NCBI RefSeq assembly: GCF_053078305.1
Contig: NZ_CP166879.1
Strand: one strand, 5' to 3'
Length of the DNA stretch: 64,000 nucleotides
The notes beneath the pieces are model-generated. The model was given only the letters and a program-made list of their open reading frames with translations. It searched no databases and had not been told where the DNA came from. Shown one piece after another: positions 28,970-51,690 of this stretch. The position numbers and the translations under genes are program-made. Every line of letters begins with the position of its first letter. The first letter of the stretch is position 1.

Positions 28970-30937
28970 TCATGCCGCGGCGTCCGCGTTGTTCACTTCC
29001 ACCTTCACACTGTCAATCAGCAGCGTATATGTCGCCGCCTTTGATATGCCTGTCAGTTGCAGTTTGTCCGCCGCCCCTGATGCCGGAGATTTCACCAGTG
29101 TGAACGGTGTACCCCGTTTCTCATCCAGTACCGGCGTCACCTGAATGCTGTTGTTTCCGGCAAACTCAAAAGCCAGTGTGTGCCATCCGTTATCAAAGAC
29201 CCCGAACGTATCCAGCTTCGCATTCTGCTTCTTGTGGTACATCGCGTTCAGGTTCGTCGCATCCGTCTGCAGGAAGAAGGACATCAGCATGTCGTTGCCT
29301 TCCTCTGCCAGCGTCACTCCCTCCGGCAGGGACGACAACTGCCAGTAAATACCCAGGGCAAACTGATTCGGCACCAGTGCGCCCGGCACCTTAAACCGCA
29401 CGCTCACACGTCCGCCTTTCTTCAGCAACTCTGCCCCCTTCCCGGCGGCATCATGCTCCAGAAACCAGATGTGGCTTTCCGGTTTGTTCAGTTGCAGGGC
29501 CTTACCACCGGTGGCACCCTCATCACTGACCACGGCCTCAGCGATGTTTTTATCAACACTGTCTCCGCTCGCCGGTTTGTGATAATAGCGCCAGCCCTGT
29601 GATGCCAGGTCTTCACCGGACGCCAGCAGACTCATCAGGGTTCGGTTACTGACCGGGGCTTCCGGCTCTCTCTCCGGGCCTTCACCGGAAGGTCCGGTGG
29701 GCTTCACCGTATCAGGCTGTTTTCCGGTAATGAATTCAGCGGTTCTCCCGGCATGCACCAGAATCGCCGTTGCCAGACGGTCGGAAATAATCCCACGGCG
29801 AGCCCATGAACTGAAATGGCTGGCCCTGTCCACAGATGTCCAGGTCTTCTGGTCATTACGCCACTTTGAACCGTAATAACCGACGGCTTCCAGGTCCGGG
29901 TCTTCTGCCGGGTCATTGGTCTGCACATTCGCACCATTCTCATCCGTCATTAACGGTACAAAGAAAATGTTCTGCGACTCCTTACCCTTATACCCTCCGT
30001 ATACTGATGCATACCCTTCCGCATGACGCTGCTTCCAGAAATACGTTGTGTCCCCGCAAATCCACGGTACCGCTGATGCGCTGCCTCCTGTGCTCTGTGA
30101 TGCCTGACCGGCAAGCTCCGTTCTGAACTGATTCACCATCGCACTAAACAGCCCCGGATGCTGCGCATGCGTCCCCACTGCCGCATCACCTTCTCCCTGC
30201 ATCCACACCACCGCAAGCAGACGGTTTTTCGGGTTCTTCGCCAGTGCGGCTTTAGTCCGGCTCACCAAATCCTGATACAGCGGCTTACCCACACCCCAGC
30301 GCAGTGAATTTTCCGATGCACCGGCTGATTCGTTGTATGTGCCGTCTGCACCCGTTGTGAATGCCGAAGCACCACGGCAGCACGGAACCAGCAGAATGCC
30401 CGCATTCGCCGGTATAAACGGCAGCAGTTTTTTGGCGATATGCAGCCCCTGCCCCACGGTTCCGTACTGCCCCTTTGACAGGTCCGCTTTCGGATGGTTA
30501 AGACGGCTCATGTCCTGCACATCATGCAGACAATGGTCCGCCGGAATAATGTCGTTATACTTACAGGCGGCACCGCCCGGTGTCACCGTACTGCGACGCG
30601 CCAGCTGCTTAATACGCGGGTCCGGACGGTCATATGTCTCCGGCAGCGGAAGGCCTTCACCATACGACATGCCGTTTGACTGCCCTGCCAGAACCACAAC
30701 AAAGTAATACTCCGGGTCGCTGGTGGCGCTGATTACTGTGCCTTCTCCATCCGACGGCTTCACCACCACAGGTGTGGTGACATCACCTTCCGCCGCAATG
30801 GCCTGCATCAGGGTATAAGGCGTGATGGCCACCGGGCTGCCAAATGGCTGCCACCCCTCCTTCAGTTTTTGAGTCAGTCGCTCCGCAAGGTCTGACGGCG
30901 ACGCCGCCCTGACCACGTCATAGTGTTTAAATGCCAT
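28970..30937 (-). CDS. NanS-p-type sialate O-acetylesterase (SGNH/DUF303 with C-terminal lectin-like domain)
   Basis: 655 aa; VVLAGQSNGMSYG motif; position between the toxin slot and the holin as in Stx prophages. Confidence 0.8.
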   Translation of the reverse strand: MAFKHYDVVRAASPSDLAERLTQKLKEGWQPFGSPVAITPYTLMQAIAAEGDVTTPVVVKPSDGEGTVISATSDPEYYFVVVLAGQSNGMSYGEGLPLPETYDRPDPRIKQLARRSTVTPGGAACKYNDIIPADHCLHDVQDMSRLNHPKADLSKGQYGTVGQGLHIAKKLLPFIPANAGILLVPCCRGASAFTTGADGTYNESAGASENSLRWGVGKPLYQDLVSRTKAALAKNPKNRLLAVVWMQGEGDAAVGTHAQHPGLFSAMVNQFRTELAGQASQSTGGSASAVPWICGDTTYFWKQRHAEGYASVYGGYKGKESQNIFFVPLMTDENGANVQTNDPAEDPDLEAVGYYGSKWRNDQKTWTSVDRASHFSSWARRGIISDRLATAILVHAGRTAEFITGKQPDTVKPTGPSGEGPEREPEAPVSNRTLMSLLASGEDLASQGWRYYHKPASGDSVDKNIAEAVVSDEGATGGKALQLNKPESHIWFLEHDAAGKGAELLKKGGRVSVRFKVPGALVPNQFALGIYWQLSSLPEGVTLAEEGNDMLMSFFLQTDATNLNAMYHKKQNAKLDTFGVFDNGWHTLAFEFAGNNSIQVTPVLDEKRGTPFTLVKSPASGAADKLQLTGISKAATYTLLIDSVKVEVNNADAAA

Positions 30938-32981: not shown

Positions 32982-33058
32982 TGGTGCGTTGTACTGGATT
33001 CGAACCAGTGACCGATTGCTTAGAAGGCAATTGCTCTGTCCGGCTGAGCTAACAACGC
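32982..33058 (-). tRNA. argO: tRNA-Arg (anticodon TCT), argO-like
   Basis: Cloverleaf read by eye; anticodon loop CTTCTAA; GGTTCGAATCC T-arm; CCA end. Confidence 0.8.
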
Positions 33059-33071
33059 AGTGTACAGATAA

Positions 33072-33148
33072 TGGACCGCCATCGAGGACTCGAACCCCGC
33101 GCAACCAGCTTCGAAGGCTGGCGCTCTATCCCGATGAGCTAATGGCGG
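33072..33148 (-). tRNA. argN: tRNA-Arg (anticodon TCG), argN-like
   Basis: Anticodon loop CTTCGAA; GGTTCGAGTCC T-arm. Confidence 0.75.
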
Positions 33149-33155
33149 TATGTGA

Positions 33156-33231
33156 TGGTGGCCCTTGCTGGATTTGAACCAGCGACCTGGCGATTATGAG
33201 TCGCTCGCTCTCACCACTGAGCTAAAGGGCC
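33156..33231 (-). tRNA. ileZ: tRNA with CAT anticodon, ileX-like (tRNA-Ile2), ileZ-like
   Basis: GGCCCTTTAGCTCAGTGG...GACTCATAATCGC...GGTTCAAATCC...CCA; close to E. coli ileX. Confidence 0.75.
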
Positions 33232-38983: not shown

Positions 38984-39157
38984 ATGACCGTTCATGGTAT
39001 ACAGGAAGGCAGTATTGTTAACTTACGTGAAAAAGATGGGGAATGGCTTGTAGTACAAACTATTAAAAACGACGACCTTACATATCAACTCCGAAATACA
39101 GATACCAGCGAAGAAGTAAACGTCGCACTTCAGGACATTATCTCCCCAAATAAATAA
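38984..39157 (+). CDS. Small hypothetical protein (57 aa)
   Basis: Read by eye: MTVHGIQEGSIVNLREKDGEWLVVQTIKNDDLTYQLRNTDTSEEVNVALQDIISPNK; AAAGGG RBS. Confidence 0.3.
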   Translation: MTVHGIQEGSIVNLREKDGEWLVVQTIKNDDLTYQLRNTDTSEEVNVALQDIISPNK

Positions 39158-39279
39158 TCAAATTAGCGGGGCGAACAATGCCCCGCACTGTGCTACTTAT
39201 CATCCCCAGCGGCAAATCGAATACACCACCAGCGCCACCGCCATTGCAATACCAACATTTGAGAAGGCTTCAGGCCAGC

Positions 39280-42728: not shown

Positions 42729-43469
42729 TCAGTTCCTGTGCTGGCTGACGTTCGGACGCCAGCTCTCCCAGTTAAACGTCACCCAGCGACCACCGTTCAT
42801 GGACATGCGGTCCATCACCCGCTCGCCGAGAAGTGTATTCATCGCTGCATGGTTAAGATTTGTCAGCATCCCCACACTGAGTAACGATGCCGTTCTGCGG
42901 TCAACAATCTGATTCAGCGTGACCTGCTCATTACGCGTATCCCGTTGCATGCCAATTTCATCCAGTACCAGCAGGTCAACGCCACACAATCCCTGCAAAA
43001 ATTTTTCGCCCGAGTTTTTGTTGTCGTAGCTGCCATGTAACGCCAGCATCACATCCGCCACTGTTATCACAATCACACTGCGACCTTTCGCCAGAAGGTG
43101 GTTGCCAATAGCCGCCGCCAGGTGGTTTTTTCCTGTGCCAGGCCTGCCACTGAAAACAAAATTCGTACAGCCGCCTTCCAGCTCTGCCGCAATGGATTTC
43201 GCCTGACTCAGGGCATGGCGCTGACCATCGTTCTGCACCCGGTAGTTACCGAACGTACACTTCCGGTGAAGCGGCTGGATACCGGAGCGGTTAATGATTT
43301 TTTCAACCCGCGTCTGATGATTCAGACGATTAACCTCCTCGCTTCGCTTACGCCCTTCAGCAAGCTGCCATTCCCGCCACTCCGCCACCGTACGGTACGG
43401 AGGGATTGCATCCTGCGGCACAAATCTGCTGACTCTTGCCAGAACACCACCTGACGTAATGTTTTTCAT
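42729..43469 (-). CDS. DnaC-like helicase loader (AAA+ ATPase)
   Basis: 246 aa; Walker A GRPGTGKNHL, Walker B LLVLDEIG. Confidence 0.85.
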   Translation of the reverse strand: MKNITSGGVLARVSRFVPQDAIPPYRTVAEWREWQLAEGRKRSEEVNRLNHQTRVEKIINRSGIQPLHRKCTFGNYRVQNDGQRHALSQAKSIAAELEGGCTNFVFSGRPGTGKNHLAAAIGNHLLAKGRSVIVITVADVMLALHGSYDNKNSGEKFLQGLCGVDLLVLDEIGMQRDTRNEQVTLNQIVDRRTASLLSVGMLTNLNHAAMNTLLGERVMDRMSMNGGRWVTFNWESWRPNVSQHRN

Positions 43470-43475
43470 GATGCG

Positions 43476-44465
43476 CTACCCCCTGAAACCCGGCGGAATT
43501 TCGGTATCCGGTTCAGAAATATGATTCACGCAACGCTGCGCGGGACCACGCCACAGTCGAATAACCAGTTCATCCCATTTCTCACGGAGTTTTTCCGGGC
43601 TCTTGATGTTTTTTATCCAGAACGGATCCCGTTGTGCCCGGCTGAACATTTCGCAAATTTGTCTGTGACTTCTTCCATCCAGCATCCGCATTGTGCGCAC
43701 GTCATTGGCCCACGCCGTCCAGTTGGGCTCTTTCGGTCGCGTGATCTCACCATCGTCACTGGCAGCCTGTTCGTACAGGTTTACAACCCGCCCCCAGATC
43801 CACTGCGCACACGTCAAATCCTCCCGGGTTCCCCACTGGCGTTTTTTCACGCTGAACACAACTGCATCAGGATGGCGGGTTAAAAACGCCTGTTCAGCCG
43901 TCAGCTCGTCCGGTTGCGAAGCGTCCGGACAAGAGAGTTTTTTATTCTCTGTTGTATTCTCTGTTGTATTCTCTGTTGTATTCTCTGTTGTATTCTCTGT
44001 AGGATCATCGGGCCATTTTGACCTGATGACATTGGGCCGTTTTGAACCAATGGAACGTTTCATTTTGACCTCTTCCATCGTGTCATTTTGACCTGATGGA
44101 GTGGCGCATTTTGACCCGATGGATTCGTTCACTTTGCCATCATCTAAAAGCGCGCTATCGTAGTTAATTGTGTAAAAATTAGTCATATCACGCTTCGATT
44201 TATTGAGCTTTTCGCTACGCAAAAGCCCCAGCGCTTTCAGACTTGCAAACGCACGCTTTAACGTTGACTCTGACCAGAACGGAAACTGTTCCAGCCATTG
44301 TTCCGTTGTGTTGTAAATCCAGCGAACGCCATCACATTCCATGCCGGAACTGGTATCCCTCAACCAGTAATGCAGTTGCTGCAACACAATGGCTTCGTTT
44401 AAACCAATCTTCATCGCCAGCTGTGTGTTTATAACCAGCGGGCGTTCAGCAAAAAGAAGGCTCAT
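43476..44465 (-). CDS. Replication initiator (O-like) containing origin iterons
   Basis: Internal start in track ORF 43476..44507; central TENTTENTTENTTENTTEN encoded by 12-bp tandem repeats. Confidence 0.65.
   Translation of the reverse strand: MSLLFAERPLVINTQLAMKIGLNEAIVLQQLHYWLRDTSSGMECDGVRWIYNTTEQWLEQFPFWSESTLKRAFASLKALGLLRSEKLNKSKRDMTNFYTINYDSALLDDGKVNESIGSKCATPSGQNDTMEEVKMKRSIGSKRPNVIRSKWPDDPTENTTENTTENTTENTTENKKLSCPDASQPDELTAEQAFLTRHPDAVVFSVKKRQWGTREDLTCAQWIWGRVVNLYEQAASDDGEITRPKEPNWTAWANDVRTMRMLDGRSHRQICEMFSRAQRDPFWIKNIKSPEKLREKWDELVIRLWRGPAQRCVNHISEPDTEIPPGFRG
43941..44001. repeat. About five tandem 12-bp repeats (TTCTCTGTTGTA), candidate origin iterons
   Basis: Seen directly in sequence inside the initiator gene. 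Confidence 0.7.
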
Positions 44466-44967
44466 AATTCCATCCGGCTTTTTGTTGGTACTGGTGACGA
44501 TAGGCACGCTTGAAAGCGATTGCTTTTTCTATAAGCTCGTCTGTCTCACGTTCCACAACAGCTGGATCTGCAAAAAGCAGCCCGGACTCCACCACATCGC
44601 CATATTCTTTGTTTAACCCGGCAATCATGTACGTAATGCTTTTTCCGTCAGTAATTTCGCGGTACAACCTGAAATCACTAATCCGGATAGCCTCCATAAT
44701 TGCCGGAATCAGCGCCGTGAATTTTTCTCGCTTATCCCTGGTGTCGATAGCCTTCCAGCGTTCGAATATCTTCACCCGGTTAACGCCAAGCGCACGCTGA
44801 TCAACCCCGCCATCATCAAGCGTGACACGCTGAACATCGATGTTCGGGCGTTCCTGTAGAGCCCAGAAGGCTTCAGTAATTAATATCGTCGCCTGCTCCT
44901 GCGTCATTCCTGGTCGGCTTATCCAGGCATCCAGGGCATCGCGTGCCTGCTCAAGGGTGATTTTCAT
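44446..44967 (-). CDS. Hypothetical protein in the cII slot
   Basis: 173 aa between cro-like gene and initiator. Confidence 0.4.
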   Translation of the reverse strand: MKITLEQARDALDAWISRPGMTQEQATILITEAFWALQERPNIDVQRVTLDDGGVDQRALGVNRVKIFERWKAIDTRDKREKFTALIPAIMEAIRISDFRLYREITDGKSITYMIAGLNKEYGDVVESGLLFADPAVVERETDELIEKAIAFKRAYRHQYQQKAGWNYEPSFC

Positions 44968-45181
44968 TGTTCAACCGCCCCGCCCGCTTCGTCTTACGAT
45001 ATTCGTCATAAACTTTGGGGTCATACTGAAGCTCCCCGCCGGATGCCTCTTGCAGGCGCATCGCGCGACCTTCAGGTACTAGCTCCCCTTTCCAGCTATA
45101 AAGCGAAGCCAAACGAATACCAGCAGCTTGTGCGAGTTTTGTTTTTGAACCGAAATACAAAAGTGCGTCAGTTTTAAGCAT
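44951..45181 (-). CDS. dicC: Cro-like repressor DicC
   Basis: MLKTDALLYFGSKTKLAQAAGIRLASLYSWKG...; divergent from dicA. Confidence 0.85.
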   Translation of the reverse strand: MLKTDALLYFGSKTKLAQAAGIRLASLYSWKGELVPEGRAMRLQEASGGELQYDPKVYDEYRKTKRAGRLNNENHP

Positions 45182-45264
45182 TTAAAGCACCCTGAATGTT
45201 AGTCATGACTAACAAAATAGATGTTAACAAAAACATAGTCAATAAGATTTAGCATTAGCTAACT

Positions 45265-45672
45265 ATGGATACAAAAAATTTAACCATTGGCGAACGCATT
45301 AGATATCGCCGAAAAAGCCTCAAATACACCCAAAGGTCTCTTGCTAAAGCCCTGAAAATTTCTCATGTATCGGTTTCACAATGGGAACGGGATGACAGCG
45401 AACCGACAGGGAAGAATCTTTTTGCCCTCAGCAACGTACTGCAGTGCTCGCCAACATGGATTCTATTTGGCGATGAAGACAAGCAGCCATCACCACCTAT
45501 TGAGGAGCCAGTTGCTCTATCCCCCAAAGAACATGAGCTCCTTGAGCTTTTTAATGCATTGCCTGAATCAGAACAGGATGCTCAGCTCACCGAGATGCGC
45601 GCCCGAGTAAAAAATTTCAACAAACTCTTTGAAGAGTTATTAAAAGCCCGTCAACGAACAAACAAAAGATAA
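45265..45672 (+). CDS. dicA: Immunity repressor DicA (HTH XRE)
   Basis: MDTKNLTIGERIRYRRKSLKYTQRSLAKALKISHVSVSQWERDDSEPTGKNLFALSNVLQCSPTWILFGDEDKQP... Confidence 0.9.
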   Translation: MDTKNLTIGERIRYRRKSLKYTQRSLAKALKISHVSVSQWERDDSEPTGKNLFALSNVLQCSPTWILFGDEDKQPSPPIEEPVALSPKEHELLELFNALPESEQDAQLTEMRARVKNFNKLFEELLKARQRTNKR

Positions 45673-50319: not shown

Positions 50320-50523
50320 ATGAGCAGCTTATTTTTAACCGAAGATGAATTGCTAATATTAACGGGCTGCAAATATGCAAGCCACCAGCGCAACTGGTTA
50401 ATAAAAAATGGGCTTCCGTTCTATACCAATCGTAGTGGAAAACCGATCGTCAGTCGGGAACTGTTTACCTGTAGAAACACTTTACCACCACGTGAGGCTG
50501 AACCTGATTTCGGTGCGATCTAA
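50320..50523 (+). CDS. Excisionase-like protein (DUF4224-like)
   Basis: 67 aa immediately upstream of integrase; ...LTEDELLILTGCKYASHQRNWLIKNGLPF... Confidence 0.5.
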   Translation: MSSLFLTEDELLILTGCKYASHQRNWLIKNGLPFYTNRSGKPIVSRELFTCRNTLPPREAEPDFGAI

Positions 50524-51548
50524 TGGGAAGACGAAGGAAAAATCCCGAACACGAAAAATTACCGCCAAAGGTATACCCCAATAAATATAGTTATGTATGG
50601 AAACCGACATCCAGAGAATCTGTAACCTTAACTGCAATCGAGGATGGTTTAGCCGCATTATGGAAAAAGTACGAAGAAACAATTAACCATCGCGATCGGG
50701 CAATGACATTTGGGCGTTTGTGGGAAAAATTTCTCGCCAGCGCCTATTACAGCGATCTTAGTCCCAGAACGCAAAAAGATTATCTGCAACATCAAAAAAA
50801 GCTGCTGGCCGTATTCGGTAAGGTGCTGGCCGATTCTGTAAAACCAGAGCACATCAGACGATACATGGACAAAAGGGGCGAGCAGAGTAAAACGCAGGCA
50901 AACCATGAAAAAAGCAGCATGTCACGCGTTTACAGTTGGGGGTATGAACGAGGGTATGTAAAGGCTAATCCTTGTGCCGGTGTAAGTAAATTCAAGGCCA
51001 AAAACCGAGAGCGCTATGTGACTGACAAAGAATACCAGGCCGTATTAAGCGTGGCTCCTGTGCCTGTTTTTATCGCAATGGAAATTGCATACCTGTGCGC
51101 AGCAAGGATTTCCGATGTGTTGTCTCTGAAATGGGAACAGATCGGAAACGACGGGATCTTTATCCAGCAAGGTAAAACAGGAAAGAAACAGATAAAAGCC
51201 TGGAGTCCCCGTCTGCAATCAGTTATAGAAAAAGCTAAACAGCTACCCAAGTCAGCCTATGTAATCAGCAATCAGTACGGCAACCGTTACATGTATAAAG
51301 GATTTAATGAAATGTGGGTTGAGGCAAGAAATTTGGCTGGACAAATATCAGGGATCGCGACGGATTTTACATTCCATGACCTTAAAGCCAAGGGGATATC
51401 AGATTACGAAGGTAGTAGCCGGGATAAGCAACTTTTCTCTGGTCACAAGACCGAAGGACAGGTGCTAATCTATGATAGAAAAGTAAAGATCTCACCCACA
51501 CTGGATGTACCATTACCCCAGAATATTCCAACAAAATATTCCAAGTAA
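50523..51548 (+). CDS. int: Tyrosine integrase
   Basis: 341 aa; phage integrase family; adjacent to tRNA 3' end. Confidence 0.9.
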   Translation: MGRRRKNPEHEKLPPKVYPNKYSYVWKPTSRESVTLTAIEDGLAALWKKYEETINHRDRAMTFGRLWEKFLASAYYSDLSPRTQKDYLQHQKKLLAVFGKVLADSVKPEHIRRYMDKRGEQSKTQANHEKSSMSRVYSWGYERGYVKANPCAGVSKFKAKNRERYVTDKEYQAVLSVAPVPVFIAMEIAYLCAARISDVLSLKWEQIGNDGIFIQQGKTGKKQIKAWSPRLQSVIEKAKQLPKSAYVISNQYGNRYMYKGFNEMWVEARNLAGQISGIATDFTFHDLKAKGISDYEGSSRDKQLFSGHKTEGQVLIYDRKVKISPTLDVPLPQNIPTKYSK

Positions 51549-51600
51549 TTCCAAGTGTGATTTTCGTCATTGACTTAATGATGTGTAAGTGATTGAATTC

Positions 51601-51690
51601 TGGTGGAGAGAGGGGGATTTGAACCCCCGGTGGAGTTGCCCCCACTCCGGTTTTCGAGACCGGTCCGTTCAGCCGCTCCGGCATCTCTCC
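51601..51690 (-). tRNA. serU: tRNA-Ser (anticodon CGA), serU-like; prophage attachment site
   Basis: GGAGAGATGCCGGAGCGGCTGAACGGACCGGTCTCGAAAACCGG...GGTTCAAATCCCCC...CCA read from minus strand. Confidence 0.85.

What the first reader, a model, noticed from the sequence alone, without database searches (positions are those of the whole stretch)
43476..44465. Origin iterons embedded in the O-like initiator gene
About five tandem copies of TTCTCTGTTGTA lie in the middle of the initiator gene and encode a TENTTEN... peptide linker, mirroring lambda ori inside O. An AT-rich stretch follows on the transcript. This identifies the probable prophage replication origin.
Basis: partly seen in the sequence, partly recalled or inferred. 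Interest (0 to 1): 0.4.

Follow-up and report, generated by a model that had tools for sequence, protein, structure and literature searches.

The report
Conserved 12-mer array beside prophage origin iterons
The prophage's replication origin does lie inside its initiator gene, but the 12-base tandem repeat is not the initiator's specific binding site: it is a separate DNA module that sits next to the real binding sites and recurs, almost letter for letter, beside the unrelated binding sites of hundreds of phage origins across many bacterial phyla.

Summary
Observation confirmed. Window 43941-44000 holds five tandem 12-mers (sense ACAGAGAATACA x4, then ACAGAGAATAAA). They lie in the lambda-O-like initiator gene (43476-44465, minus strand) and encode TENTTEN...

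Interpretation partly supported. An origin is very probably here, but the 12-mers are not the initiator-specific iterons. Those are six repeats at 23-bp spacing directly upstream on the transcript (44006-44144, core GGTCAAAATG), several with dyad symmetry like lambda's.

The 12-mer array occupies the position of lambda's A+T-rich unwinding region. It is the least stable 40-mer of the gene in 10/10 relatives and is 77% purine on the sense strand.

No separate AT-rich stretch follows the array; the array is itself the AT-rich stretch.

Copy number varies from 2 to 7, with 3 the commonest.

Unexpected result: the same array, ACAGAGAnTACw repeated two or more times, sits 3-7 nt after iterons of many unrelated sequences. 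It occurs in initiator genes of phages and prophages of Proteobacteria, Firmicutes, Cyanobacteria, Chloroflexi, Nitrospirae and others.

Conservation is at the DNA level. Evidence: fixed codons, one copy read in another frame, and non-coding copies.

Best reading: a generic cis-acting origin module, probably the opening and helicase-loading site. Its reader is unknown. I found no description of it in the open-access papers searched.

The parts
43476..44465 (-). Initiator gene (329 aa from the ATG at 44465; an in-frame GTG lies at 44507). It has an N-terminal winged-helix domain, a disordered linker and a lambda-O-like C-terminal domain.
   Evidence: ORF list. phrog_391 'replication initiation O-like', E 6.7e-91. 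No Pfam hit. RefSeq bounds of the 99.7%-identical gene. AlphaFold2: residues 10-105 and 190-305 folded, 109-186 with pLDDT below 50 (block means about 25-28 over residues 111-180).
44145..44465 (-). Coding region of the N-terminal DNA-binding (winged-helix) domain, aa 1-107.
   Evidence: AlphaFold2 secondary structure H-H-E-E-H-H-E-E. Best PDB fold matches are RepA_N/Rep-DNA complex 5kbj and 4pt7, and DnaD-N 2v79; these are weak (E 0.02-0.3). Homologues occur in phages of Gram-negative and Gram-positive hosts. No similarity to the lambda O N-domain.
44122..44144 (-). Iteron I0, degenerate in this window (GATGATGGCAAAGTGAACGAATC). It is a good copy in the Klebsiella and Citrobacter relatives (GGTCAAAGTGAC).
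   Evidence: DNA alignment of 11 relatives.
44006..44121 (-). Iterons I1-I5, the probable initiator-binding sites. Sense consensus is CATCrGGTCAAAATGnCnCGATG. Unit starts are 23, 23, 23 and 24 bp apart. Units: I1 44099-44121, I2 44076-44098, I3 44053-44075, I4 44029-44052, I5 44006-44028.
   Evidence: Repeat family D2 and inverted repeats I2 and I5. Four exact GGTCAAAATG copies. Copy number and sequence are conserved across relatives. Third-codon-position identity is 76-83% here against 36-49% in the N-domain for the Klebsiella, Citrobacter, L019 (E. coli) and L021 comparisons. The sequence changes with the N-domain.
44001..44005 (-). Spacer ATCCT between the last iteron and the array. Together with the iteron end it forms a GATC site.
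   Evidence: Sequence. A T precedes the array in 75% of 111 distinct loci.
43941..44000 (-). The reported tandem array: five 12-mers (ACAGAGAATACA x4, then ACAGAGAATAAA), encoding TENTTENTTENTTENTTENK. Proposed generic origin module in the position of lambda's A+T-rich unwinding region.
   Evidence: GC 0.32 and AT skew -0.76. Least stable 40-mer of the gene, and 77% purine on the sense strand. Unstructured as single-stranded DNA. Copy number 2-7. DNA-level conservation. Association with many iteron types.
43908..43937 (-). Conserved junction after the array (sense CTCTCTTGTCCGGACGCTTCGCAACCGGAC). It contains the 6-bp inverted repeat GTCCGG/CCGGAC.
   Evidence: Shared by relatives that have a different C-domain (L011) and, from TCTTGTCCGGAC on, by L013 (L012 a close variant), which have a different N-domain. 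Role unknown.
43476..43880 (-). Coding region of the C-terminal domain, homologous to the lambda O C-terminal domain. Ends in a DnaT-like tail, ...ISEPDTEIPPGFRG.
   Evidence: BLASTP against lambda O: 37% identity, E 5e-25. NCBIfam DnaT tail match at aa 308-329, E 0.003, far below the cut-off.
42729..43469 (-). DnaC-like helicase loader gene, immediately downstream of the initiator.
   Evidence: NF009043, 474.8 bits (cut-off 389). PF01695 IstB_IS21. phrog_50.
45214..45242 (-). pR-like promoter candidate (TTGACT-17-TATTTT). It lies upstream of the cro-like, YdaT/cII-like, initiator and loader genes, so transcription from it would cross the origin.
   Evidence: Consensus scan only. Gene order.

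Best explanation
The middle of the initiator gene carries a lambda-style replication origin made of two different repeat modules.

**Module 1: the specific sites (44006-44144).** Six repeats at 23-bp spacing with core GGTCAAAATG. The initiator's N-terminal winged-helix domain probably binds them. This is inferred.

**Module 2: the reported 12-mer array (43941-44000).** It starts 5 bp after the last iteron, always on the same side and the same strand. It is the least stable, purine-skewed stretch of the gene. I propose it is where the duplex is opened and where the C-terminal domain brings in the DnaC-like loader with DnaB. This step is also inferred.

**What is shown.**
- The array is conserved as DNA, not as peptide.
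- It is shared by origins whose iterons and initiator domains differ.

So it is a generic origin component, not the specificity determinant.

**Who reads its sequence is open.** Candidates are:
- a conserved, aromatic-rich surface of the initiator N-domain capturing one opened strand, as DnaA does with DnaA-trios and plasmid Rep proteins do with their unwinding elements;
- a universal host replication factor;
- the purine-rich transcript forming a stable RNA-DNA hybrid.

**Copy number** changes by slippage between 2 and 7. Three is the standard number and the five here is a rare expansion.
For: **Architecture.**
- BLASTP aligns window aa 149-302 with lambda O aa 141-270 (E 5e-25).
- In that alignment SKWPDD, coded by the last 23-bp repeat, falls on SKQGD, coded by lambda iteron 4.
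- The TENT repeats fall on lambda's AT-rich-coded TKDTITKEKRKDYSSEN.

**Helical stability.**
- A nearest-neighbour scan puts the least stable 40-mer of the gene on the array in 10/10 relatives and in all six further relatives examined that carry the array.
- In the window it ties with 44164-44203.
- The same scan picks lambda's known AT-rich region.
- The sense strand is 77% purine, against 75% in lambda.
- PMC5043065 describes lambda's 40-bp A+T-rich region with purines almost all on one strand, and notes repeated 13-mers in the unwinding elements of oriC and RK2.

**Natural domain swaps.**
- The Klebsiella phage L011 keeps the N-domain, the iterons and the 12-mers but has an unrelated C-domain.
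- E. coli L012 and L013 keep the C-domain but have another N-domain, other repeats and no 12-mers.

**Iterons vary, the array does not.**
- Hafnia, Erwinia, Pantoea, Pseudomonas and Klebsiella ZX1 phages have cores such as GGGCAAATTGCCC or GGGACAAATTGTCC, each followed by 2-4 ACAGAGAnTACn units.
- Staphylococcus and Bacillus phages with cores close to the window's (GGACAAAATG, GTGTCAAAATG) have partial or irregularly spaced copies.
In 32 loci no window-type N-domain was detected upstream. The 31 of these that have upstream sequence each show repeats of another sequence directly upstream.

**DNA-level constraint.**
- Third codon positions are 92% identical in the array and 76-83% in the iterons, against 36-49% in the N-domain. 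Fisher p is 1e-7 to 3e-9 for three of the four divergent comparisons and 3e-6 for the fourth.
- Glu is GAG in 25/25 array codons, against 107/185 elsewhere (p 3.6e-6).
- Thr is ACA or ACT in 51/53, against 58/162 elsewhere (p 2.6e-16).
- The first Thr codon of each unit is ACA in 23/23, against 11/22 for the fourth codon.
- Bacillus phage TP21-L has units 11 and 10 bp apart, so one is read in another frame.
- L363 reads the units as RDYHRDY within an intact 350-codon ORF.
- In L343 the iterons and array have stops in all frames and precede a Shine-Dalgarno site and ATG.

**Protein context.** AlphaFold2 predicts residues 109-186, coded by the iterons and the array, as disordered.

**Lambda precedent.** In-frame 12- and 15-bp deletions in lambda's AT-rich region kill the origin in cis, while the O protein still complements (PMC6022878).
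Against: - Nothing here shows binding, opening or replication. All function is inferred.
- In this window a second stretch (44164-44203) is equally unstable, although it is not conserved as such in relatives.
- At 68% A+T, the array is less AT-rich than lambda's region (78%).
- A plain unwinding element would not need a 10-base sequence conserved across phyla, so 'unwinding element' is incomplete as an explanation.
- Lambda tolerates no 12-bp deletion in its AT-rich region. Here 12-bp steps occur naturally (2-7 copies), so length is less critical or the logic differs.
- The reading frame T-E-x-T is kept in about 100 of the 109 genome loci that have at least 500 nt upstream, so some protein-level or descent constraint coexists.
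- The sequences compared are not phylogenetically independent, so the Fisher p-values are optimistic.
- The L363 frame case comes from a metagenome-assembled genome.
Confidence: 0.6

Rival explanations
1. One reading: the 12-mers are the iterons. That is, they are the repeated double-stranded sites that this initiator recognises specifically, and the O-some assembles on them.
For: They are perfect tandem repeats in the middle of an O-like gene. At least two or three copies are kept in all relatives.
Against: - The same 12-mer follows iterons of many unrelated sequences and goes with different N-domains. It therefore cannot set specificity.
- A separate 23-bp-period family with partial dyad symmetry, co-varying with the N-domain, fits lambda's iterons far better.
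- The array aligns with lambda's AT-rich region, not with its iterons.
- The 12-bp period is out of helical phase.
Confidence: 0.06
2. Recombination joint. The array is kept because it is a short shared homology at the boundary between the origin/N-domain module and the helicase-recruiting C-domain module. Phages would use it to shuffle these modules. It would have no direct role in initiation.
For: - Module boundaries fall at or just after the array. The Klebsiella phages match the window only from inside the array upstream (query 490-933).
- L118-type and L148-type loci share the sequence after the array but differ before it.
- 12 C-domain clusters are joined to the array.
- Recombination within in-frame arrays would also explain why the reading frame is kept.
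Against: - Second-order selection for shuffling is unlikely to hold 10 bases fixed from Enterobacteria to Cyanobacteria, Chloroflexi and Clostridia.
- It does not explain the fixed polarity, or the 3-7 nt distance from the last iteron.
- It does not explain the non-coding copies beside iterons (L343, L183).
- It does not explain why the array is always the stability minimum.
Confidence: 0.12
3. Peptide linker or neutral VNTR. Selection acts on a flexible Thr/Glu-rich linker (TExT)n between the two domains. The DNA repeat is a by-product that expands and contracts neutrally.
For: - The region is predicted disordered.
- Copy number varies between near-identical alleles.
- The T-E-x-T frame is kept in most loci.
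- Unrelated Thr/Glu-rich surface proteins also hit the pattern occasionally (L327, L330, L380, L391).
Against: - Synonymous sites are fixed: GAG 25/25, and the first Thr codon ACA 23/23.
- Third positions are 92% conserved where the N-domain is at 36-49%.
- Units are read in other frames (TP21-L; L363).
- Copies occur with stops in every frame (L343).
- In the unrelated Thr/Glu-rich proteins the codons do vary.
Confidence: 0.05
4. Transcript-level role. The purine-rich mRNA made across the array forms an unusually stable RNA-DNA hybrid with the pyrimidine-rich template strand. That R-loop opens the origin or provides a primer. This would be the physical basis of 'transcriptional activation' of the origin.
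For: - The purine-rich strand is the sense strand here and in lambda.
- The origin lies in an operon behind a pR-like promoter.
- Lambda's origin needs transcription nearby (PMC5043065).
- In nearly all loci seen the array is on the coding strand.
Against: - Purine richness alone would not fix ACAGAGAnTAC.
- No RNA family or structure was detected.
- In the non-coding copies (L343, L183) transcription is not evident.
- This is a sub-mechanism of origin function rather than a true alternative.
Confidence: 0.1

Closest known systems
Bacteriophage lambda ori (four iterons plus a 40-bp A+T-rich region inside gene O)
   Same: - The origin lies inside the initiator gene, in the linker between the DNA-binding N-domain and the C-domain.
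- The repeats are spaced 20-24 bp apart and have dyad symmetry.
- An A+T-rich, purine-skewed stretch follows immediately 3' of the last iteron on the sense strand.
- The C-terminal domain is homologous: 37% identity, E 5e-25.
- The gene order is cro-like, cII-like, initiator, loader.
   Different: - The N-terminal domain is unrelated in sequence (no PF04492 hit; hhalign probability 0.1%).
- There are six iterons with another sequence.
- The loader is DnaC-like, not lambda P.
- The AT-rich position is filled by a tandem 12-mer of conserved sequence, not a unique A-rich tract.
- Lambda and phi80 lack the array. Lambda has only a single CAGAGAAT just after its AT-rich region.
Repeated 13-mers of the unwinding elements of E. 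coli oriC and plasmid RK2
   Same: - Short A+T-rich direct repeats lie next to the initiator sites.
- Their sequence matters as well as their composition (PMC5043065).
- One register of the array's T-rich strand (TCTCTGTTGTATT) matches the oriC M 13-mer GATCTGTTCTATT at 10 of 13 positions.
   Different: - The 10/13 match is near chance after allowing for registers, strands and three 13-mers (my estimate p about 0.05).
- There is no GATC in the units.
- The period is 12, not 13.
- The array is coding in most loci.
- It is conserved across phyla and across initiator families, which the 13-mers are not.
DnaA-trios and Rep-ssDNA contacts in plasmid unwinding elements (initiators that read a second, single-stranded motif beside their double-stranded sites)
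   Same: The proposed logic is the same: a variable double-stranded recognition element, plus a short repeated motif directly adjacent with fixed polarity in the region that opens.
   Different: - This rests on my own knowledge of those systems and nothing was tested here.
- The unit is 12 nt, not 3.
- The initiators here are winged-helix proteins without an AAA+ domain.
- The motif does not resemble a DnaA-trio.
Origins inside replisome-organizer or initiator genes of Gram-positive phages (for example SPP1 oriL in gene 38)
   Same: - The initiator binds repeats inside its own gene, with an adjacent AT-rich region.
- Phages of Staphylococcus and Bacillus have N-domains about 45% identical to the window's, with iteron cores GGACAAAATG and GTGTCAAAATG.
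   Different: - I did not examine SPP1 itself.
- The window protein did not hit Pfam at all (0 families at E <= 0.01), so also not its phage replisome-organizer N-terminal family.
- The array is degenerate or irregularly spaced in the two Gram-positive isolates I read.

Membership tests
Lambda-type origin embedded in the initiator gene | The origin lies within the initiator ORF, in the segment between the DNA-binding domain and the C-terminal domain. | tested here: met
   Both repeat families fall in codons 108-174. AlphaFold2 predicts residues 109-186 as disordered, between two folded domains.
Lambda-type origin embedded in the initiator gene | Four or more repeated sites about two helical turns apart, with internal dyad symmetry. 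| tested here: met
   Five or six copies, 23-24 bp apart. I2, I4 and I5 have CATCrGG...CCyGATG arms, and the arm change in I4 is compensated (CATTGG/CCAATG). Lambda's spacings are 20, 24 and 23 bp.
Lambda-type origin embedded in the initiator gene | An A+T-rich region with purine/pyrimidine strand asymmetry directly 3' of the last iteron. | tested here: met
   43941-44000: 68% A+T, 77% purine on the sense strand, and the least stable 40-mer.
Lambda-type origin embedded in the initiator gene | The initiator binds the repeats, the duplex opens in the AT-rich region, and the fragment supports replication. | not testable with these tools
   Needs EMSA or footprinting, permanganate probing and a replication assay.
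Lambda O protein family | N-terminal domain of the Phage_rep_O type (Pfam PF04492). | tested here: not met
   No Pfam hit at E <= 0.01. hhalign of the N-domain profile against the lambda O N-domain gives probability 0.1%.
Lambda O protein family | C-terminal domain homologous to the lambda O C-terminal (P-interacting) domain. | tested here: met
   BLASTP: 37% identity over 154 aligned columns, E 5e-25.
Iterons (initiator-specific binding repeats), applied to the 12-mers | The repeat sequence co-varies with the initiator's DNA-binding domain. | tested here: not met
   The same ACAGAGAnTACw array follows iterons of many different sequences and at least two BLAST-separable N-domain families. The 23-bp repeats do co-vary.
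Iterons (initiator-specific binding repeats), applied to the 12-mers | Repeats in phase with the DNA helix (about 11 or 22 bp). | tested here: not met
   The period is exactly 12 bp. Bacillus phage TP21-L has 11 and 10 bp.
Iterons (initiator-specific binding repeats), applied to the 12-mers | Bound by the initiator. | not testable with these tools
   A contact through a conserved surface of the N-domain is not excluded.
DNA unwinding element | Minimum of helical stability next to the initiator sites, conserved among relatives. | tested here: met
   The least stable 40-mer falls on the array in 10/10 relatives and in all six further relatives examined that carry the array: Hafnia yong2, Erwinia PEp14, Pantoea AH07, Pseudomonas AF, Pseudomonas USP_18 and Klebsiella ZX1. 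The control on lambda picks the known region. In the window it ties with 44164-44203.
DNA unwinding element | Strand opening observed under superhelical stress or on initiator binding. | not testable with these tools
Variable-number tandem repeat | Copy number differs between otherwise near-identical alleles. | tested here: met
   Alleles with near-identical flanks carry 2, 3, 4, 5 or 6 copies; these numbers are inferred from match lengths. Three, four and five copies are confirmed by alignment, and seven in L018. In loci retrieved by protein similarity, three copies occur in 75/80 and 67/80.

The most novel reading that the evidence does not exclude
The tandem array (ACAGAGAnTACw), two or more copies, is a sequence-specific, pan-bacterial cis-element of phage replication origins. 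It sits at a fixed distance and polarity 3' of the iterons in a large superfamily of winged-helix phage initiators. It is conserved as DNA from Enterobacteria to Firmicutes, Cyanobacteria, Chloroflexi and Nitrospirae, while the iterons and both protein domains diverge. It is read by something conserved: a constant surface of the initiator, or a universal replication factor. In effect these origins would be bipartite, with variable double-stranded sites and a constant opening or loading motif. On this reading the element has not been described before.
Probability: 0.4. Interest if true: 0.8.

Novelty: new variant of a known kind. Interest (0 to 1): 0.6.

Why it matters
**For this prophage.** The result pins the probable origin to 43941-44144 and separates the specificity sites from the opening site. 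This corrects which repeat should be mutated or used in binding assays.

**More generally.** A 10-base DNA motif held constant beside hundreds of otherwise unrelated iteron sets, across bacterial phyla, is unusual for protein-coding phage DNA. If it is functional, it would do three things:
- give a simple sequence signature for locating replication origins in phage and prophage genomes. A scan for two units found origin-like contexts in about 100 of 120 hits;
- point to a conserved step of origin opening or helicase loading that has a sequence requirement;
- explain why initiator genes recombine at exactly this point.

The natural 2-7 copy series, and the frame-shifted and non-coding copies, provide ready-made test material.

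Tried and rejected
- **oriC 13-mer homology.** One register matches the M 13-mer at 10/13. After allowing for 12 registers, 2 strands and 3 13-mers this is near chance (my estimate p about 0.05). Kept only as a lead.
- **Promoter in the array.** The consensus scan finds none. The TAnTCT on the T-rich strand lacks a -35 element or a correctly spaced TG.
- **Structured RNA.** Rfam gives no match at E <= 1. The array is unpaired in the single-strand fold, and the whole region has z -1.4.
- **DnaA box, IHF site, DnaA-trio, pause element.** Checked by eye against consensus sequences from memory. No convincing match. Not tested with tools.
- **Primase start site.** CTG on the T-rich strand of every unit is noted, but it is too short to explain a 10-base motif.
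- **BLAST of the array against isolated phages.** No match, because the low-complexity filter masks it.
- **The search for related loci with the N-domain alignments.** Each returned 80 near-identical loci. These were useful for copy-number counts but not for diversity.
- **P22.** I fetched the wrong region, so P22 gene 18 was not examined.
- **Literature.**
  - String searches for the peptide and DNA motifs found nothing relevant.
  - Searches on iterons, replisome organizers, oriJ and mEp460 found no description of this origin or motif.
  - The library covers open-access papers only.
- **Pfam on initiators with other iteron types.** Mostly no N-domain family. C-domains were Phg_2220_C and DnaT; a lambda-O-C-like C-domain (L132) was seen by eye only, not by Pfam.
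Full report
**1. What is in the window**

The window is an E. coli lambdoid prophage. The 1032 bases around the finding are 99.7% identical to a prophage of E. coli O178:H19 strain 2012C-4431.

The relevant genes are as follows.

| Coordinates | Strand | Product | Evidence |
|---|---|---|---|
| 45265..45672 | + | cI-like repressor | |
| 44951..45181 | - | Cro-like protein | |
| 44446..44967 | - | YdaT/cII-like protein | |
| 43476..44465 | - | initiator | phrog_391 'replication initiation O-like', E 6.7e-91; no Pfam hit |
| 42729..43469 | - | DnaC-like loader | NF009043, 474.8 bits |

A pR-like promoter candidate lies at 45242..45214 on the minus strand.

**2. The observation**

- Tandem Repeats Finder reports a 12-bp period, 4.8 copies and 100% matches at 43943-44000.
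- In register with the gene there are five units at 43941-44000. Four are exact ACAGAGAATACA and one is ACAGAGAATAAA.
- They encode TENTTENTTENTTENTTEN.

This part of the finding is confirmed.

The statement that an AT-rich stretch follows on the transcript is not confirmed. The 60 bases after the array are 55% GC. The array itself is the AT-rich stretch, with GC 0.32 and AT skew -0.76.

**3.

Directly upstream on the transcript there are five copies of a 23-nt unit at 44006-44121, spaced 23-24 bp apart. A degenerate sixth copy lies at 44122-44144. That sixth copy is a good copy in the Klebsiella and Citrobacter relatives.

- The sense consensus is CATCrGGTCAAAATGnCnCGATG.
- Four exact GGTCAAAATG copies lie within 103 bp on one strand.
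- Units I2, I4 and I5 have inverted arms. In I4 the arm change is compensated (CATTGG...CCAATG).
- Lambda's four annotated iterons are 20, 24 and 23 bp apart and are also dyad-symmetric (PMC6022878).

**4. Comparison with lambda**

The C-terminal half of the protein is homologous to lambda O: 37% identity, E 5e-25.

- The alignment puts SKWPDD, coded by the last 23-bp repeat, on lambda's SKQGD, coded by iteron 4.
- It puts the TENT repeats on TKDTITKEKRKDYSSEN, coded by lambda's A+T-rich region.

The N-terminal domain is not lambda-like (no PF04492 hit; hhalign probability 0.1%).

AlphaFold2 predicts three parts:
- a winged-helix N-domain, residues 10-105;
- a disordered stretch, residues 109-186, which is exactly the part coded by the two repeat families;
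- a helical C-domain.

The best PDB fold matches of the N-domain are plasmid RepA_N/Rep-DNA structures and DnaD-N. These matches are weak.

**5. The array as the stability minimum**

- A nearest-neighbour scan with 40-bp windows places the least stable segment of the gene on the array in 10 of 10 relatives. In the window it ties with 44164-44203, which is not conserved as unstable.
- The same scan applied to lambda O picks 39122-39161, the known A+T-rich region.
- The sense strand of the array is 77% purine. Lambda's region is 75%.
- Lambda's region is described as 40 bp, opened on O binding, with nearly all purines on one strand (PMC5043065).
- As single-stranded DNA the array is unpaired.

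**6. Natural domain swaps**

- Klebsiella phage vB_VIPKPNMC05 shares the N-domain, the six iterons and three 12-mers. Its C-domain is unrelated.
- E. coli prophages L012 and L013 share the C-domain. They have another N-domain, other repeats (GACCCGTCAA...) and no 12-mers.

So among these close relatives the array travels with the N-domain and iteron module.

**7. Copy number**

| Source | Copy numbers seen |
|---|---|
| E. coli alleles with near-identical flanks | 2, 3, 4, 5, 6 (from match lengths; 3-5 also by alignment) |
| L018 | 7, built from a 24-bp double unit |
| 120 protein clusters | 3 in 114 |
| 80 viral loci retrieved by N-domain similarity | 3 in 75, 5 in 2 |

The five copies in the window are therefore a rare expansion. 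The isolated phages mEp460_ev081, HannyBb and PhiR42_1 carry three; three units are seen in the alignment for the first and last, and for HannyBb this is inferred from match length.

**8. The unexpected part: the array is far more widely conserved than the iterons**

I sampled phages by N-domain similarity only.

| Phage | What follows the iterons |
|---|---|
| Hafnia yong2, Erwinia PEp14, Pantoea AH07, Pseudomonas AF, Pseudomonas USP_18, Klebsiella ZX1 | N-domains about 50% identical to the window's; different iteron cores (GGGACAAATTGTCC, GGGCAAATTGCCC and others); 2-4 units of ACAGAGAnTACn |
| Staphylococcus P954, Bacillus TP21-L | iteron cores GGACAAAATG and GTGTCAAAATG; partial or irregularly spaced copies |
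| Vibrio OPA17, Xanthomonas Dennis | only degenerate purine-rich stretches |

- In 88 loci the window-type N-domain lies upstream.
- In 32 loci no window-type N-domain was detected within 520 bp upstream. The 31 of these that have upstream sequence each show repeats of another sequence directly before the array. L186 has no upstream sequence at all, and L161 is a truncated window-type locus with GGGTCAAAATG iterons.
- Two of the loci could be identified as Acinetobacter phages from their contig lengths.

I estimate about 0.5 matches by chance. The hosts were:
- Gammaproteobacteria;
- Firmicutes (Lachnospiraceae, Selenomonadaceae, Staphylococcus, Bacillus, Caldanaerobacter and others);
- Cyanobacteria;
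- Chloroflexi;
- Nitrospirae and Nitrospinota;
- Campylobacterota;
- WOR-3;
- one MAG labelled archaeal.

Of 109 loci with enough upstream sequence, 100 have at least 100 in-frame codons upstream. Nearly all show family-specific repeats that end 3-7 nt before the array. About eight to ten hits are unrelated Thr/Glu-rich repeats in large proteins or other contexts.

*Further details.*
- The unit after the matched pair, which is not constrained by the search pattern, has the consensus A C A G A G A W T A C W at 51-77% per position. The base before the array is T in 75% of loci.
- Two N-domain families that BLAST separates are probably one superfamily (hhalign probability 86%, E 4.6e-6).
- At least 12 C-domain clusters are attached to the array. 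Pfam recognises Phg_2220_C and DnaT among the sampled representatives; a lambda-O-C-like type (L132) was recognised by eye only.
- Lambda and phi80, which have the lambda-type N-domain, do not have the array.

**9. DNA or peptide?**

The conservation is in the DNA. Four lines of evidence support this.

- *Synonymous sites.* Against four divergent relatives (Klebsiella phage L011, Citrobacter L016, E. coli L019 and metagenomic L021), third codon positions are 36-49% identical in the N-domain, 76-83% in the iterons and 92% in the array.
- *Codon choice in nine diverse genes chosen by protein similarity.*
  - Glu in the array is GAG in 25 of 25 codons, against 107 of 185 elsewhere.
  - Thr is ACA or ACT in 51 of 53, against 58 of 162 elsewhere.
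  - The first Thr codon of each unit is ACA in 23 of 23, while the fourth codon is ACA in 11 of 22.
- *Other reading frames.*
  - In Bacillus phage TP21-L the units are 11 and 10 bp apart, so the middle one is read in another frame.
  - In L363 a 13-nt first unit shifts the frame. An intact 350-codon initiator then reads the next units as RDYHRDY.
- *Non-coding copies.*
  - In L343 (Planococcus soli) the iterons and array have stops in every frame and precede a ribosome-binding site and ATG.
  - In L399 the iterons are non-coding.
  - In L183 a fragment with iteron-like repeats and the array lies between a terminator and an integrase gene.

Caveats: the sequences are not independent, so the p-values are optimistic. 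L363 comes from a metagenome-assembled genome.

**10. Explanation**

*Shown.*
- There are two repeat modules with fixed order, spacing and polarity.
- The 23-bp repeats co-vary with the N-domain.
- The 12-mer array does not co-vary with the N-domain, and it is constrained as DNA.
- The array is the stability minimum, and it occupies the position of lambda's unwinding region.

*Inferred.*
- The initiator binds the 23-bp repeats.
- The duplex opens in the array.
- The C-domain brings in the loader and helicase there.

*Open.* What reads the sequence of the array is unknown. A plain unwinding element would not need ten fixed bases. I therefore favour a sequence-specific contact, either by a constant part of the initiator or by a universal host factor. 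The N-domain alignment has invariant Y33, W34, W49, W57, F61 and W64. A role for the purine-rich transcript is possible. A pure recombination-joint role is less likely, and a pure peptide-linker role is contradicted by the evidence in section 9.

**11. Known or new**

An origin inside an O-like gene, with iterons followed by an AT-rich region, is the classical lambda design (PMC7466680; PMC5043065). This origin is a new member of that kind.

I did not find the tandem, cross-phylum conserved 12-mer in the AT-rich position described anywhere. This covers string and topic searches of the open-access library. That library omits most subscription journals, so a prior description cannot be excluded.

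I rate the element a new variant of a known kind. Interest is moderate to high because of the breadth and the DNA-level nature of the conservation.

Noticed in passing
window 43476-43541 (aa 308-329 of the initiator): The C-terminal tail ISEPDTEIPPGFRG weakly matches the C-terminus of primosomal protein DnaT (NF002770, E 0.003, far below the cut-off). A similar ending (VPAGFRS, VPAGFRN, VPHGFRG, IPEGFRG) closes relatives whose C-domains are otherwise different. It may be a conserved docking peptide.
   Followed up: partly
window 43908-43937: The sequence just after the array (sense CTCTCTTGTCCGGACGCTTCGCAACCGGAC, with GTCCGG/CCGGAC inverted arms) is shared by initiators with a different C-domain (L011) and, from TCTTGTCCGGAC on, by L013 (L012 a close variant), which have a different N-domain. 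Lambda and phi80 also have an inverted repeat just after their AT-rich region (GTCAGAG...CTCTGAC).
   Followed up: partly
L014 1164-1171 (lambda 39163-39170): Lambda has a single CAGAGAAT directly after its AT-rich region, matching the core of the 12-mer. phi80 has CCGAGAAT at the same place. This may be a relic or may be chance.
   Followed up: no
L183 1480-1610: Iteron-like repeats, a DnaA-box-like AGTGGATAA and two 12-mers lie in an intergenic stretch between the terminator of a 735-aa ORF of unknown identity and an integrase gene. No initiator domains flank them. This could be an origin-only fragment, for example of an element that borrows a helper's initiator, or a gene remnant.
   Followed up: partly
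L332 and L399: In these loci the N-domain part and the C-domain part are in different frames or separated by stops at the iterons or the array. The initiator may exist as two separate proteins there, or these may be pseudogenes.
   Followed up: no
(loci L001-L009, L016-L021): Close relatives of the initiator are followed by quite different genes. These include a DnaC-like loader, DUF977/LygF, a PerC-like protein and a 147-aa unknown protein. Pseudomonas phage AF has a primase/helicase and Staphylococcus phage P954 has a helicase loader plus a DnaB-like helicase. The helicase-recruitment partner is therefore not fixed.
   Followed up: no
window 44164-44203: A second stretch is as unstable as the array (dG -45.1 kcal/mol per 40 bp). 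It lies on the other side of the iterons, inside the end of the N-domain coding region. It is not equally unstable in most relatives.
   Followed up: partly
window 43835-43846 and 43882-43893: A 12-nt inverted repeat (ACTGGCGTTTTT / AAAAACGCCTGT, 92% complementary, 35 nt apart) lies at the start of the C-domain coding region. It looks less well kept in the mEp460-type relatives.
   Followed up: no
window 32982-33231, 28970-30937, 50523-51690: Prophage context. Three tRNA genes (Arg-tct, Arg-tcg, Met-cat) lie upstream of a 331-aa ORF with no Pfam family. There is a NanS-p-like esterase (DUF1737 + SASA + DUF6645). An integrase lies next to tRNA-Ser(cga), probably marking the prophage end.
   Followed up: partly
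L013 (E. coli O157:H7), middle of its initiator gene: The initiator with the other N-domain has its own repeats (GACCCGTCAA / TTGACCC). These are followed by a twice-repeated GATCCGTCAG(T)AT(T)AAAA unit rich in A+T. This is another origin with a repeated unit in the AT-rich position.
   Followed up: no
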